From Vicinamibacteria bacterium (lineage in GTDB: Bacteria; Acidobacteriota; Vicinamibacteria; Marinacidobacterales; Marinacidobacteraceae), in the NCBI GenBank assembly GCA_963555995.3, contig OY821641.1, positions 1,632,001-1,696,000 on the forward strand: DNA of 64,000 bases. Reading direction: 5' to 3'. The translations under genes and the position numbers were made by a program. The notes beneath the pieces are model-generated. The model was not told where the DNA came from. It saw nothing but the letters and a program-made list of their open reading frames with translations, and searched no databases. Within the stretch, counting starts at the first letter, position 1, and every line of letters begins with the position of its first letter. Shown here piece by piece: positions 18,505 through 58,569 of this stretch.

Positions 18505-19716
18505 ATGGAGGTAGCGCCGACCGAAGGCCCGGGAACCAACGGCGTGGATCTCCGTCCCGGGAGTCTTCCCGGAACCTGGCGCCTCCCGACCGGGCCGTCG
18601 CCCCTGGTCCGCTCCGGTCCCGGCGCGCTCGCCGCTCTCGGCGAACTCGCCCGGGGCCTCGGACTGCGGCGGACCCTCGTCACGTCAGACCCCGGGATCG
18701 TGTCCGCCGGGATCGCGGAGCACGCCGCGGCGAGCCTCCGGGAAGCCGGTGTCGAGGCGGCGGTGTTCTCGGACTTCGGCGAGAACCCGACCGAATCCGA
18801 CGTCGCCAACGCGGCGGTGGCGGCGCGCGCCCTGAAGGCGGACTCGCTGGCCGGCGTGGGGGGAGGAAGCTCGCTGGACGCCGCCAAGGGGGCGGGGTTC
18901 GTCCTCGCCGGCGGCGGCCGGATGGAGGACTACCGGGGCTACGACACGTGCCCGCATCCCCTGCCCCCACTGCTCGGCGTCCCGACCACGGCGGGAACCG
19001 GCAGCGAAGCGCAGTCCTACGCGCTCATCTCGCGGGACCGGGACCACCAAAAACTTGCGTGCGGCGCCGCCTCCGCGATGTTTCGCGCGGTCATCCTCGA
19101 CCCGACGCTGCTCCCCTCGGCGCCTCCGGAGGTGATTGCGGCGACCGGCTTCGATTCCATCGCCCACGCGGTGGAAACGGCGGTGACTTCCGGGCGGACC
19201 GACGAGTCGGTGGCCCTCAGCCACCGCGCCTTCGCGCTGCTGAGCCGGGCGTTCCCGCTGGTCACGGCCGGTGACGCCGACGCCGCCGCCTGGGAGGCCA
19301 TGCAGCGCGGCGCGTTCCTCGCGGGCGCGGCCATCGAGCGATCCATGCTCGGGGCCGCCCACGCCTGCGCGAACCCCCTGACCCGGCGGTTCGACGTGGC
19401 CCACGGCCGGGCGCTCGCCATCACCCTGCCCCGGGTGGTGCGCTGGAACGCCTCCTCCGCGACGGAGGCCTATCGCGATCTGCTGCGCGCCGCCGGGATC
19501 CCGCCGGGAGACGATCCCGCGGACACCCTCGCGAGCCGGCTCGACGCCTGGGTCGTCAGGGCGGGCCTGCCGCGGGAGCTCGCCGACGCGAGCGTCCACG
19601 ACCGCGACCTGCCGGCGCTCGCGGAGGAGGCCTCCGCCGAGTGGACCGGACGCTTCAATCCGCGCCCGTTCGATGCGGCGGGCGCCCTCGCCGTCTATCG
19701 TTCCGCCGTGGCATGA
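18505..19716 (+). CDS. Iron-containing alcohol dehydrogenase
   Basis: GGGSSLDAAK, PTTAGTGSE, DSIAHAVE, LGAAHACA, HG metal ligands. Confidence 0.92.
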   Translation: MEVAPTEGPGTNGVDLRPGSLPGTWRLPTGPSPLVRSGPGALAALGELARGLGLRRTLVTSDPGIVSAGIAEHAAASLREAGVEAAVFSDFGENPTESDVANAAVAARALKADSLAGVGGGSSLDAAKGAGFVLAGGGRMEDYRGYDTCPHPLPPLLGVPTTAGTGSEAQSYALISRDRDHQKLACGAASAMFRAVILDPTLLPSAPPEVIAATGFDSIAHAVETAVTSGRTDESVALSHRAFALLSRAFPLVTAGDADAAAWEAMQRGAFLAGAAIERSMLGAAHACANPLTRRFDVAHGRALAITLPRVVRWNASSATEAYRDLLRAAGIPPGDDPADTLASRLDAWVVRAGLPRELADASVHDRDLPALAEEASAEWTGRFNPRPFDAAGALAVYRSAVA

Positions 19717-20861
19717 AGCGCACACTCGCTCTCACCCTCATCGTTCTCCCGCTGGCCGCCGGCGCCGCCGCGCAGGGCGGCGGCGACTGGCCCCAGTTCC
19801 GCCGGGACGCGGCGCTCACCGGCATCGCCGCCACGCCGCTCGGCGACGGGCTCGAACTGAAGTGGAGCGCGCCGCTCGGCTTCTCGGTGGAGTCCTCCCC
19901 CGCCGTCGCCGGCGGTTTCGTGTACGCGACCTCGCTACCGGGGGTGCTGGTGAAACTGGACCTCGCGGACGGCGCCGAGGCATGGCGCTATCGCCCCGGC
20001 GGCGCCGAAGCCGATGCCGGAGAGTTCGAGGAGGACCGCTTCGGGGAGTCCTCCCCGGCGGTGGCGGACGGCACGGTGTTCGTGGGGGACCTGATGGGGG
20101 TTCTCCATGCCCTCGACGCGGAGACCGGCGAGGTCCGCTGGCGCTTCGCGACCGGGGCCGAGATCAAGTCCTCGCCGGTGGTGGCCGGTGACCTCGTGCT
20201 CATCGGCAGCTACGACGAACACTTCTACGGCGTGGACCGCGCGACGGGCGAAGCCCGCTGGTCGCTCCAGACCGAAGGGCCCGTGCACGCCACCCCGGGG
20301 CGCCACGACGGCCTCGCCTGGGTGACGGGGTGCGACGCGGTGCTCCGCGGGGTGCGGATCACCGACGGGACCGAGATGCTTCGCTTCGACTCCGGCGCCT
20401 ATACCGCCGCCTCCCCCGCCATCGCGGACGGCACGCTCTACTACGGCACCTTCAACAACGAGGTGCTGGCGGTGGACGTGAAGGCCGGCAAGCTCCGGTG
20501 GCGCTACGAGCACCCGGAGCGGCACTTTCCCTTCTACGCCTCCGCGGCGGTCGCGGACGACCTGGTGATCGCCGCCGGCCGGGACAAGCTGGTCCACGCC
20601 CTCGACCGGCAGACGGGGGAGGCCCGCTGGGCCTTCCGCGCCCGCGCCCGCTTCGACGCCTCGCCGGCGGTGGCCGGGAACCGCGTGTACGCCGGGAACG
20701 CCGACGGCCGGCTCTACGTGCTGGACCTCGCCACCGGCGAGAAGCTCTCCGAGTTCCACGCGGGCGCCGCGATCATGGGCTCCCCCGCAATCGCCGGTGG
20801 ACGCATCGTCTTCGGCACCCAGGACGGCACGCTCTTCGCGCTTGGCCCGGCTTCCGACTGA
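19713..20861 (+). CDS. Secreted PQQ-like/BamB-like beta-propeller protein
   Basis: ATGA overlap with Fe-ADH stop; MKRTLAL signal; DWPQFRR; regular SSPAVADG..ALDxxTG..W blades. Confidence 0.88.
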   Translation: MKRTLALTLIVLPLAAGAAAQGGGDWPQFRRDAALTGIAATPLGDGLELKWSAPLGFSVESSPAVAGGFVYATSLPGVLVKLDLADGAEAWRYRPGGAEADAGEFEEDRFGESSPAVADGTVFVGDLMGVLHALDAETGEVRWRFATGAEIKSSPVVAGDLVLIGSYDEHFYGVDRATGEARWSLQTEGPVHATPGRHDGLAWVTGCDAVLRGVRITDGTEMLRFDSGAYTAASPAIADGTLYYGTFNNEVLAVDVKAGKLRWRYEHPERHFPFYASAAVADDLVIAAGRDKLVHALDRQTGEARWAFRARARFDASPAVAGNRVYAGNADGRLYVLDLATGEKLSEFHAGAAIMGSPAIAGGRIVFGTQDGTLFALGPASD

Positions 20862-20876
20862 GGCCGGCCGCGGCGC

Positions 20877-57235: not shown

Positions 57236-57261
57236 CTCTTCCCTTTGTTCGGTAGCAGTGT

Positions 57262-58569
57262 TCAGGCGGCGATCACCCGGGCGAAGGCCGCTTCGGCGTC
57301 TTCGGCCATCCGGTCGAGGGAGTGCTCTTCCCGGATGCGGGCGAAGCCGCGCGCCCCGACGCTCGCCCGCCGCTCGGGATGCAGGACCAGTTGCGAGAGC
57401 GCCGCCGCAAAGTCCTCGGGATCGCTGCTCTTCGCGAGCACCCCTCCCTCGGCCCGGTCCAGCAGGGCGGGATAGGCCCCCTGCTGGGGAACCACCACCG
57501 GCGTCCCCGCCATCATGGCCTCGATGGCCGGGATGCCCTTCGGCTCGGGGAACGTCGCGGGAATGCCGATGAGGTCGGCCTCGCGGAGGAAACGGATCTT
57601 CTCCGCGTGATCGAGTTCGCCCACATGCTCGAAGGAGACGGCGGACCCGTCCGCGGCGAAGAGCCGCCGGACCTCCTCCAGGTACCCCTTCCCGCCGCGG
57701 CTCATCCACCCGGCGGCCCGCACCCGGAGCGGCGGCGCTTCCGGTTGTCCGGCCAGTTGGAGCGCGGCGCGCGCCAGCCGGTCGAGCCCCTTCTCCGGAG
57801 CGATCCGGGAAAAGAAACCGATCGTCACTTCCCGCGCGCCAGCCGCGTCGTCCGCCGCCGGCGGGGCCTTCGGTTCCGGGGGATATCCCTCGGGGTCCAC
57901 TCCCAGCCGCACGAACGACACGCGCTCGTCGGGGATGCCCAGCATGTCCGCCATGCCGCGGGCGTGATGCTCGGTGACGCCCACGAAGTGGTGCGCGGCG
58001 CCCGCGGCCTCCCGCATCAGGCCGAGCGCCCGCTCGCGGTCCCCGGCGGGCAGCCGGGCCAGGAACAGGTCCTCCCCGGAGAAGGTCACCACCACCGGCG
58101 CCCCGGTGGCCGCGGCCAACGGACCGGCCAGTCCGAGGAGCAGCGAGTTGGGCAGCACCACCACGTCGGGGCCGGCGTCGCGGACGGACTCCGCCAGCGC
58201 CTCGACCGCCCGCCGGGCCGGGCCCCGCGCCCCCGCGAGCGTCGTGACCGTCAACGGCCCCAGCCTGGTCGGGTCGTTGGACGACGAGAACCGCTCGACG
58301 AGGCCGAGCAGCGCCGGCGAATCCAGCAGCCGGCCGAGACCGGGCAGCGCCCCGAAGAGCGGGGCCGCGTGCTGCAGGTACACCGAGACGCCCCCGAAAC
58401 GCACCCGCTCTTCCGAGACGCTCGTCTCGTCGGTCCGGCTGCGCTGGTAGAGGGGCACGAGCCGCACGTCGTGCCCGCGTTCGGCGAGCGCCCGCGCCAG
58501 CGCGTTGTCCCGGATGCAGCTCCCGCAGAGCATCTCCCCCGCCCCGGCGGTGAAGCTCAGGATCCGCAC
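57262..58569 (-). CDS. GT4 family glycosyltransferase
   Basis: CGSCIRDN..LA..GHDV, SRIAPEKGL, EPKGIPAIEAMMAGTPVV; start uncertain. Confidence 0.85.
   Translation of the reverse strand: MRILSFTAGAGEMLCGSCIRDNALARALAERGHDVRLVPLYQRSRTDETSVSEERVRFGGVSVYLQHAAPLFGALPGLGRLLDSPALLGLVERFSSSNDPTRLGPLTVTTLAGARGPARRAVEALAESVRDAGPDVVVLPNSLLLGLAGPLAAATGAPVVVTFSGEDLFLARLPAGDRERALGLMREAAGAAHHFVGVTEHHARGMADMLGIPDERVSFVRLGVDPEGYPPEPKAPPAADDAAGAREVTIGFFSRIAPEKGLDRLARAALQLAGQPEAPPLRVRAAGWMSRGGKGYLEEVRRLFAADGSAVSFEHVGELDHAEKIRFLREADLIGIPATFPEPKGIPAIEAMMAGTPVVVPQQGAYPALLDRAEGGVLAKSSDPEDFAAALSQLVLHPERRASVGARGFARIREEHSLDRMAEDAEAAFARVIAA

What the first reader, a model, noticed from the sequence alone, without database searches (positions are those of the whole stretch)
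18505..58569. Dispersed candidate pathway: acid activation, reduction, glycosylation and export linked to beta-propellers
Seen: three separate tightly coupled blocks. (a) GT4 + short lid-less adenylating enzyme (56138-58569). (b) Atypical ALDH-fold protein + LolD-like ATPase + 1163-aa FtsX permease (36173-41800). (c) Fe-ADH translationally coupled to a secreted propeller (18505-20861). Established: EhpF/EhpG in Pantoea phenazine (griseoluteate) modification and LuxE/LuxC in fatty-acid reduction are adenylating-enzyme/ALDH-fold pairs that reduce a carboxylate. No phz or luxAB genes are in this window. Inference: these blocks are fragments of one cluster making an unknown glycosylated alcohol (envelope lipid, cofactor or metabolite) that is exported by a MacB/Lol-type transporter, possibly to the propeller proteins.
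Basis: partly seen in the sequence, partly recalled or inferred. Interest (0 to 1): 0.7.

Follow-up and report, generated by a model that had tools for sequence, protein, structure and literature searches.

The report
Split orphan pathway serving propeller proteins
Three separated gene blocks in this genome are pieces of one gene cluster that is intact in other little-studied bacteria and that likely turns an unidentified, probably aromatic, acid into a sugar-tagged alcohol and likely hands it to a large, unexplained family of exported propeller-shaped proteins found almost only in bacteria that carry the cluster.

Summary
All three blocks are real. They lie in one co-directional run of about 14-18 genes in 5 of 12 Acidobacteriota genomes fetched, and within 17 kb in two same-order genomes. 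In 111 phylum genomes the EhpF-like enzyme (27) tracks the GT4 (28), FtsX (28), a core propeller (28) and a dispersed multi-copy propeller family (27; 26 shared). A control family of PQQ-like proteins does not (12 of 20 shared). The adenylating enzyme matches EhpF (E 4e-49). Its partner keeps the catalytic Cys but has His for the ALDH Glu, so acid-to-aldehyde-to-alcohol reduction is likely. A radical SAM enzyme and a flavin halogenase belong to the system and lie elsewhere in this genome. Chorismate-lyase-fold genes in other lineages point to a hydroxybenzoate, but none was found here. Product and propeller function are unknown; my best reading is a periplasmic ligand or cofactor for the propellers. 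It is not a phenazine, Lux or PQQ pathway, and no paper describing it was found. This scan has reported the system many times on other DNA; this window is a fragmented copy.

The parts
56138..57235 (-). EhpF/GriC-type short adenylating enzyme, 365 aa, no C-terminal AMP-binding_C domain hit
   Evidence: PDB EhpF 3l2k E 3.7e-49 over residues 12-358; single copy in nearly all positive genomes; 59-87% identical across two phyla
57262..58569 (-). GT4 glycosyltransferase, 435 aa, with a conserved N-terminal CxxC
   Evidence: Pfam PF00534/PF13439; conservation in 39 rows; 28 of 111 genomes, including all 27 with the adenylating enzyme
40379..41800 (-). EhpG/GriD-type ALDH-fold reductase, 473 aa; Asn165 and Cys289 invariant, His253 in place of the ALDH general-base Glu
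   Evidence: Pfam Aldedh 6e-20; alignments; 23% identical to the Pantoea EhpG-position protein, E 8e-25; present in the same 54 of 61 relatives as the adenylating enzyme
39671..40375 (-). LolD/MacB-type ABC ATPase, 234 aa
   Evidence: Pfam ABC_tran; LolD model 5e-60, below cut-off
36173..39664 (-). Two-half FtsX-like (type VII ABC) permease, 1163 aa, with two large extracytoplasmic domains (about 49-526 and 801-1044)
   Evidence: Pfam FtsX, two stretches; hydropathy and conservation; 28 of 111 genomes, including all 27 with the adenylating enzyme
18505..19716 (+). Iron-containing alcohol dehydrogenase, 403 aa (alternative GTG start at 18544)
   Evidence: Pfam Fe-ADH; 48 of 61 relatives; 24 of 111 phylum genomes, all within the 27
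19713..20861 (+). PQQ_2-type beta-propeller, 382 aa, coupled to the Fe-ADH gene; signal peptide by eye
   Evidence: follows Fe-ADH in Planctomycetota and Acidobacteriota loci
16699..18153 (+). Core 8-bladed propeller (copy 1) with many invariant polar loop residues
   Evidence: model pLDDT 88.6, best folds YxaL and BamB; conservation; 28 of 111 genomes, including all 27
48515..50776 (+). Propeller + Ig-like + unassigned C-terminal domain, about 700-750 aa; precedes the core propeller in most loci
50773..52224 (+). Core propeller (copy 2), 53% identical to copy 1; in intact clusters this type sits directly before the adenylating enzyme
326..1708 (-). Propeller whose closest homologue lies just downstream of the FtsX gene in several other genomes
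1728..3800 (-). Ankyrin + propeller protein of the dispersed family (start approximate)
10310..16681 (-). Three more propellers of the dispersed family (10310-11752, 13887-15257, 15254-16630) around an S9 peptidase gene

Best explanation
The three blocks are fragments of one conserved pathway that likely activates an unidentified, probably hydroxybenzoate-type, aromatic acid with ATP, likely reduces it to an alcohol, likely tailors and glycosylates it, and likely delivers it to a family of exported beta-propeller proteins as a bound ligand or cofactor. Step by step: (1) Shown: the genes form one operon elsewhere and are inherited together, along with the propeller family. (2) Inferred from homology, about 0.8: the EhpF-like enzyme makes an acyl-adenylate, passes the acyl group to Cys289 of the ALDH-fold partner, NAD(P)H releases the aldehyde, and the Fe-ADH makes the alcohol. 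(3) Inferred, about 0.55: the acid is a 4-hydroxybenzoate derivative, made by a chorismate-lyase-fold protein in some lineages and imported by a sodium:solute symporter in others, including this genome. A flavin halogenase and a HemN-like radical SAM enzyme would halogenate and C-alkylate the ring. (4) Inferred, about 0.6: the GT4 adds a sugar and the LolD/FtsX transporter moves or extracts the product to the periplasm. (5) Inferred, about 0.55: the core propellers process or carry it and the dispersed paralogues use it. A TonB-dependent receptor in many copies of the cluster would salvage it from outside, which is the layout of a vitamin-like cofactor system.
For: Contiguity: 5 of 12 genomes fetched (chosen because their hits clustered) carry all seven genes in one co-directional run with the radical SAM gene (G111, G134, G146, G065, G098). 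G034 and G030 hold the three blocks within 16-17 kb. Among 61 loci outside the window's family, the EhpF-like gene has the reductase nearby in 54, GT4 in 18, Fe-ADH in 17, FtsX in 13 and a HemN-like radical SAM in 13; many of these loci are short contigs. Co-occurrence in 111 genomes of at least 90% completeness: EhpF-like 27, GT4 28, FtsX 28, core propeller 28, dispersed propeller family 27 (26 shared), radical SAM 25, halogenase 24, Fe-ADH 24, the last three all subsets of the 27; phi 0.93-0.98. Control: acido-empty quinoproteins (TIGR04528) occur in 20 genomes, only 12 of them among the 27; phi 0.39. Chemistry: EhpF match; plasmid relatives are annotated arylcarboxylate reductase or lie in phenazine and aminobenzoate clusters; GriC/GriD adenylate and reduce 3-amino-4-hydroxybenzoate (PMC10179220, passages read). 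A small cluster protein folds like DUF98 and chorismate lyase. The halogenase keeps GxGxxG, a conserved Lys and a WFWxIP motif and is closest to CndH/PltA-type structures. The cluster's receptor passes the TonB siderophore-receptor cut-off.
Against: No substrate, product or activity is known. The family forms its own clade, separated by a long branch from the four plasmid-borne known-type enzymes (33-37% identity), so an aryl substrate is extrapolated. This genome has no chorismate lyase by three searches, no cluster-type thioesterase and no clear orthologue of the receptor (best 1.9e-75 against 1e-285 in two relatives). The halogenase was not found in 3 of 27 genomes and the radical SAM in 2 of 27. 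G151 has core and dispersed propellers but no adenylating enzyme, reductase, GT4 or FtsX hit; G143 has GT4 and FtsX without the enzymes. The genomes are related: the pattern is nearly all-or-none by family, so the phi values overstate independence. The core propeller's best folds are YxaL and BamB, not PQQ dehydrogenases, and none of 18 long homologues scanned is fused to cytochrome c, which argues against a redox role. Type VII ABC transporters usually extract amphiphiles or periplasmic substrates (recalled), and no lipid-attaching enzyme is a constant member.
Confidence: 0.45

Rival explanations
1. The pathway makes a secreted metal chelator or other scavenging molecule. The product is exported, re-imported with its cargo by the TonB-dependent receptor and the symporter, and the propellers mature or bind it in the periplasm.
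For: The receptor scores above the TIGR01783 siderophore-receptor cut-off and its closest structures are siderophore receptors. A HupE/UreJ-like gene precedes the core propellers in the window and in one distant locus.
Against: Reducing the carboxylate removes a metal ligand. No NRPS or NIS synthetase is in the intact operons. The receptor is missing from this genome and from G111's operon. It does not explain many dispersed propeller paralogues. No Rfam riboswitch in 13 sources; metal-regulator boxes were not searched.
Confidence: 0.2
2. The product is a structural cell-envelope glycoconjugate, an aryl- or acyl-alcohol glycoside that the type VII ABC transporter extracts from the inner membrane, with BamB-like propellers acting as carriers or assembly factors.
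For: LolD/FtsX architecture; BamB and YxaL are the nearest folds; a small four-helix membrane protein that could be a flippase recurs in the cluster; strict single-copy inheritance.
Against: No acyl- or prenyltransferase is a constant member. A dedicated outer-membrane importer fits a scarce small molecule better than a bulk lipid. The many invariant polar loop residues of the core propeller suggest a specific small-molecule site.
Confidence: 0.17
3. The pathway makes an ordinary exported secondary metabolite (a halogenated aryl glycoside, for defence or signalling), and the propellers are only linked resistance or accessory proteins.
For: All characterised EhpF/GriC-type pairs serve antibiotics or pigments. 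A planctomycete makes 3,5-dibromo-p-anisic acid from a chorismate lyase and a halogenase (bioRxiv 10.1101/723874).
Against: Near-universal single-copy presence in whole families (53 of 55 same-order genomes counting this one) and 60-75% identity between phyla look like core metabolism. The dispersed propellers track the pathway. That paper's halogenase is Bmp5-like, a different type.
Confidence: 0.12
4. The system runs as uptake and catabolism: receptor, symporter and propellers import and cleave an aryl glycoside, and the dehydrogenases oxidise it to an acid.
For: Importers are in the cluster; some propeller homologues are fused to 3-keto-disaccharide hydrolase or DUF6807 domains.
Against: The ALDH-fold protein lacks the general-base Glu needed to release an acid. 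GT4, halogenase, radical SAM and chorismate-lyase-fold proteins are biosynthetic.
Confidence: 0.04
5. The three blocks are unrelated and lie within 40 kb by chance.
For: In the window they are separated by peptidases, amidohydrolases and toxin-antitoxin genes, and block c is on the opposite strand.
Against: They form one operon in other genomes and have near-identical distributions.
Confidence: 0.02

Closest known systems
EhpF/EhpG of the D-alanylgriseoluteic acid (phenazine) cluster of Pantoea agglomerans (EhpF: PDB 3l2k, 3hgu, 3hgv)
   Same: Short adenylating enzyme aligned over its whole length (E 3.7e-49), followed by an ALDH-fold protein with the same Cys and GPG motifs.
   Different: Only 33% and 23% identity; separate clade; no phz genes in the window or the intact operons; linked instead to Fe-ADH, GT4, radical SAM, halogenase, a type VII ABC transporter and propellers.
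GriC/GriD carboxylic acid reductase of grixazone biosynthesis
   Same: Two-protein adenylation-then-reduction of an aromatic acid (PMC10179220, passages); relatives annotated arylcarboxylate reductase at 35-37% identity.
   Different: GriC and GriD themselves were not aligned. No griH/griI or phenoxazinone synthase in the operons; a further reduction to the alcohol is predicted here.
PQQ system (pqqABCDE, apo-quinoproteins, TonB-dependent PQQ uptake; recalled)
   Same: Layout of cytoplasmic synthesis, export, outer-membrane salvage and many periplasmic 8-bladed propellers of the PQQ_2 clan.
   Different: No pqqC found in this genome (control silent) and no pqqE above cut-off in 5 genomes with the intact operon. 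The propellers fold closer to YxaL/BamB than to PQQ dehydrogenases. The enzymes are unrelated to Pqq enzymes.
LolCDE / MacB-type (type VII) ABC transporters
   Same: LolD-like ATPase and a two-half FtsX permease with large extracytoplasmic domains.
   Different: Below the LolD cut-off; no NCBIfam match for the permease; single polypeptide; no MacA- or LolA-like gene in the operons mapped.
baa (3,5-dibromo-p-anisic acid, Planctomycetales strain 10988) and bmp pathways
   Same: A chorismate-lyase-like gene next to a flavin halogenase in a planctomycete, as in loci L046 and L118.
   Different: BaaB is described as about 44% similar to Bmp5; the halogenase here is CndH/PltA-like. The section read names no reductase, GT4 or propellers.
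LuxC/LuxE fatty-acid reductase (recalled)
   Same: Adenylating enzyme plus ALDH-fold reductase acting through a Cys thioester.
   Different: No LuxE or LuxC family hit in Pfam or NCBIfam; no luciferase among window ORFs.

Membership tests
EhpF/EhpG-GriC/GriD two-component carboxylate reductase | Short (about 360 aa) ANL adenylating enzyme homologous to EhpF over its full length | tested here: met
EhpF/EhpG-GriC/GriD two-component carboxylate reductase | Adjacent or co-inherited ALDH-fold partner with catalytic Cys and without the general-base Glu | tested here: met
   14 kb apart here, nearby in 54 of 61 distant loci
EhpF/EhpG-GriC/GriD two-component carboxylate reductase | ATP- and NAD(P)H-dependent reduction of an aryl acid | not testable with these tools
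   needs an enzyme assay
EhpF/EhpG-GriC/GriD two-component carboxylate reductase | Physical complex of the two proteins | not tested
ehp phenazine pathway | phz core genes with the pair | tested here: not met
   none among 51 window ORFs or in the mapped intact operons; rest of the genome not searched
LuxCDE | LuxE and LuxC family membership, luxAB nearby | tested here: not met
PQQ system | pqqC and pqqE in the genome | tested here: inconclusive
   pqqC not found here but the control was silent; pqqE not above cut-off in 5 of 5 operon-bearing genomes, control also silent
PQQ system | Propellers are PQQ-dehydrogenase family members | tested here: not met
   window propellers score far below TIGR03075, TIGR03074 and TIGR04528 cut-offs; TIGR04528 has a different distribution
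LolCDE | LolD above the curated cut-off and separate LolC/E-type permeases | tested here: not met
   203 bits against 308; permease has no NCBIfam hit
Type VII (MacB-like) ABC transporter | FtsX-type four-helix halves with large extracytoplasmic domains and a LolD/MacB-type ATPase | tested here: met
baa/bmp halophenol pathways | Bmp5-type halogenase | tested here: inconclusive
Siderophore system | TonB-dependent siderophore-class receptor in the cluster | tested here: met
   met in relatives; orthologue not found in this genome
Siderophore system | NRPS or NIS synthetase | tested here: not met
   none in the mapped operons

The most novel reading that the evidence does not exclude
This is the synthesis, export and salvage system for an undescribed periplasmic cofactor or prosthetic group, a halogenated, alkylated, glycosylated hydroxybenzyl compound. 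It would be the missing partner of the many 'PQQ-binding-like' propeller proteins of Acidobacteriota and Planctomycetota, turning a very large family of unknown function into cofactor-dependent enzymes. Conserved single cysteines in the reductase, the permease's outer domain and the core propellers could form a covalent relay.
Probability: 0.3. Interest if true: 0.92.

Novelty: categorically new. Interest (0 to 1): 0.72.

Why it matters
The genes behave like core metabolism in whole orders of abundant soil, marine and host-associated bacteria. The tight link between one pathway and an entire multi-copy protein family gives a direct test: knock out one gene in a cultured relative and compare metabolites and propeller-bound ligands. 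A new cofactor, metallophore or envelope compound would each be a substantial finding. The individual enzymes are of known kinds; the combination matches no system I could find.

Tried and rejected
Complex prediction for the adenylating enzyme and reductase was not available, so there is no result. The protein atlas gave no answer for the core propeller or a stored homologue. Sequencing runs: no RNA holder listed. Rfam: no match at gathering score in the window and 12 loci. Identity with the baa cluster was considered and set aside because BaaB is described as Bmp5-like. Acido-empty quinoproteins as the clients were rejected by distribution. Essentiality in Planctopirus limnophila (PMC10632474): main-text passages and part 1 of one supplement were read. 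The gene-by-gene table is in a file too large to be served and I had no locus tags, so this is unanswered; that supplement may bear on the envelope-versus-cofactor question. Supplements of the Verrucomicrobium spinosum paper (PMC12283558) held none of three product names. The EhpF structure paper could not be read; only its citation was seen, so substrate-pocket residues were not compared. Fold searches of the core propeller gave only generic 8-bladed propellers. GcvH-like, ferredoxin, PaaK-like ligase and squalene-cyclase-like neighbours in Planctomycetota have no close match in this genome and were not treated as core. Literature searches (listings and abstracts only) and passages of a 2025 Planctomycetota review (PMC12673574) showed no description of the cluster; most subscription journals are not covered.

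
Full report
Observation. The window is about 70% G+C and full of shadow ORFs, so genes were chosen by codon and residue bias and by family hits. The nearest titled loci (93-97% identity) are Acidobacteriota. Nine of the 14 strongest propeller-profile hits in the genome lie in this window.

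The blocks belong together. The adenylating enzyme and the reductase were found in exactly the same 54 of 61 relatives, nearly always single copy, and the Fe-ADH orthologue in 48 of 61. Of 29 genomes that I picked because all three hits lay on one contig, 15 have the first two genes adjacent and 23 have the Fe-ADH within 65 kb. Eighty loci around homologues were fetched. Setting aside 19 from the window's own family, the other 61 carry the reductase in 54, GT4 in 18, Fe-ADH in 17, FtsX in 13 and the Fe-ADH-linked propeller in 13; many are short contigs. Terriglobia loci read adenylating enzyme, reductase, GT4, LolD, FtsX, propellers. Planctomycetota loci read propellers, adenylating enzyme, reductase, Fe-ADH, propeller, radical SAM. 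Two same-order genomes hold all three blocks within 16-17 kb as two convergent operons. Five of 12 genomes fetched, selected because their hits clustered, have one co-directional run. In G111 it is 14 consecutive genes: large propeller, core propeller, adenylating enzyme, reductase, Fe-ADH, propeller, HemN-like radical SAM, halogenase, DUF3311, sodium:solute symporter, GT4, thioesterase, LolD, FtsX. G134, G065, G098 and G146 add a TonB-dependent receptor. The window is therefore a rearranged copy into which peptidases, amidohydrolases and toxin-antitoxin genes have been inserted.

Members outside the window. This genome has the radical SAM and halogenase orthologues (54% and 56% identity) in a block with a P450 and an acyl-CoA ligase at C1:3547158-3552618, and the symporter orthologue at C1:2311187. 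It has no detectable chorismate lyase, cluster-type thioesterase, or clear receptor orthologue. The assembly is 93% complete.

Distribution. In one even sample of 111 phylum genomes of at least 90% completeness, the adenylating enzyme is in 27. GT4 and FtsX are in those 27 plus G143. The core propeller is in those 27 plus G151. The radical SAM (25), halogenase (24) and Fe-ADH (24 at the threshold used; G065 has a weaker copy in its operon) are subsets. A generic member of the dispersed propeller family finds 1-13 scored matches in each of 27 genomes, 26 of them shared; the tool scores at most 15 candidates per genome. As a control, the acido-empty quinoprotein family is in 20 genomes, only 12 among the 27; phi is 0.39 against 0.93-0.98. 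The genomes are kin and the pattern is nearly all-or-none by family, so these numbers are descriptive. The exceptions G151 and G143 are multi-contig assemblies; the reductase was not found in either. G151 keeps three propeller genes in order with the Fe-ADH gene missing between them, which fits either salvage from outside or independence of the propellers.

Chemistry. The adenylating enzyme's only strong structural relative by sequence is EhpF. Plasmid relatives at 34-40% identity lie in phenazine and aminobenzoate clusters or are annotated arylcarboxylate reductase. In a 30-row tree the 26 system members form one well-supported group on a long branch away from the four plasmid enzymes (long branches, midpoint root), so the substrate need not be the same. 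The reductase keeps Asn165 and Cys289 and has an invariant His where ALDHs have the general-base Glu, and it aligns with the Pantoea EhpG-position protein. That is the pattern expected of an acyl-thioester reductase (established ALDH chemistry, recalled). GriC/GriD do this on 3-amino-4-hydroxybenzoate (PMC10179220, passages). A 180-aa protein in 4 of the 61 distant loci and in G101 folds like DUF98 AF1396 (E 5e-8) and chorismate lyase (E 4e-4). A PaaK-like ligase, a 4HBT thioesterase and a CndH/PltA-type halogenase with its Lys and WFWxIP motif also recur. Together these point to a ring-modified hydroxybenzoate. This step is inferred, and it is weaker for this genome, which would have to import the acid.

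Propellers and transporter. The core propeller models confidently as an 8-bladed fold nearest YxaL and BamB. Its loops carry many invariant His, Asp, Glu, Asn and Arg residues and one conserved Cys, which suggests a specific binding or catalytic site; no coordinates were available to check that they cluster. Long homologues of the dispersed family are tandem propellers or are fused to HEAT, DUF6807 or 3-keto-disaccharide hydrolase domains, and none of 18 to cytochrome c. The permease has two halves with large outer domains, an aromatic-rich conserved patch in the first and a conserved Cys motif in the second. No physical link between permease and propellers was tested.

Interpretation. The best-supported reading is one undescribed pathway that reduces, tailors and glycosylates an aromatic acid and supplies the product to the propeller family, with optional salvage through a TonB-dependent receptor. 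I put 0.97 on the genes being one system, about 0.8 on acid reduction, and 0.45 on the whole reading. The redox-cofactor version gets 0.3. Metallophore (0.2), envelope glycoconjugate (0.17) and ordinary secondary metabolite (0.12) remain open.

What is known. It fails membership of the phenazine, Lux and LolCDE systems and has no sign of PQQ synthesis, though the controls for those two searches were silent. The baa cluster uses a halogenase described as Bmp5-like (bioRxiv 10.1101/723874, passages and part 2 of 3 read). Nine literature searches found no description of the cluster (listings and abstracts only). Earlier notes of this scan report the same system on other DNA, including the cofactor idea. 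They are unchecked AI notes and are not counted as support.

Noticed in passing
G000:C1:3547158-3552618 (locus L081): P450, HemN-like radical SAM, flavin halogenase and acyl-CoA ligase in one run. The middle two are the system's orthologues. The P450 and this ligase type were not seen in the intact operons and may be a lineage-specific tailoring step.
   Followed up: partly
window 16699-18153 and 50773-52224: Two paralogues of the core propeller, 53% identical. Seven of the 28 positive genomes show two matches, some of them split genes.
   Followed up: partly
G151 (locus L119) and G143: G151 keeps three propeller genes in order without the Fe-ADH gene and has no hit for the enzymes, GT4 or FtsX; G143 has GT4 and FtsX only. 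Possible salvage strategy, or assembly gaps.
   Followed up: partly
window 58635-59783: Asparaginase_2-family gene with a twin-arginine-like leader directly upstream of the GT4 in the window's family and in several same-order genomes, but not in distant operons.
   Followed up: no
window 47299-48474: HupE/UreJ_2 membrane protein just upstream of the large and core propellers, also in locus L076; may hint at metal handling.
   Followed up: no
window 36173-39664, 57262-58569, 19713-20861: Conserved cysteines: a motif in the permease's second outer domain (about residue 863), an N-terminal CxxC in the GT4, and a GCD motif in the small propeller.
   Followed up: no
L023, L054, L066, L067, L080: In Planctomycetota the radical SAM gene is followed by a GcvH-like protein and a 4Fe-4S protein; L067 continues with a second radical SAM and a squalene-cyclase-like gene.
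   Followed up: partly
L122 (Halalkalicoccus jeotgali plasmid 2) 7508-11566: A haloarchaeon has a sodium:solute symporter, an EhpF-like enzyme and an ALDH-fold gene in a row, a minimal import-and-reduce module.
   Followed up: no
window 5426-8230: MmeI-type restriction-modification gene inserted among the propeller genes; a very similar N-terminus occurs at C1:1268713.
   Followed up: no
window 20877-21508, 32108-32727, 55400-56070: Three small toxin-antitoxin-like pairs (DUF5615 with a partner, a PemK-like pair by eye, a PIN gene) sit at junctions where the ancestral operon was interrupted.
   Followed up: no
G013:C4:3018593-3018892: A 100-codon partial duplicate of the adenylating enzyme gene 3.5 kb downstream of the full gene.
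   Followed up: no
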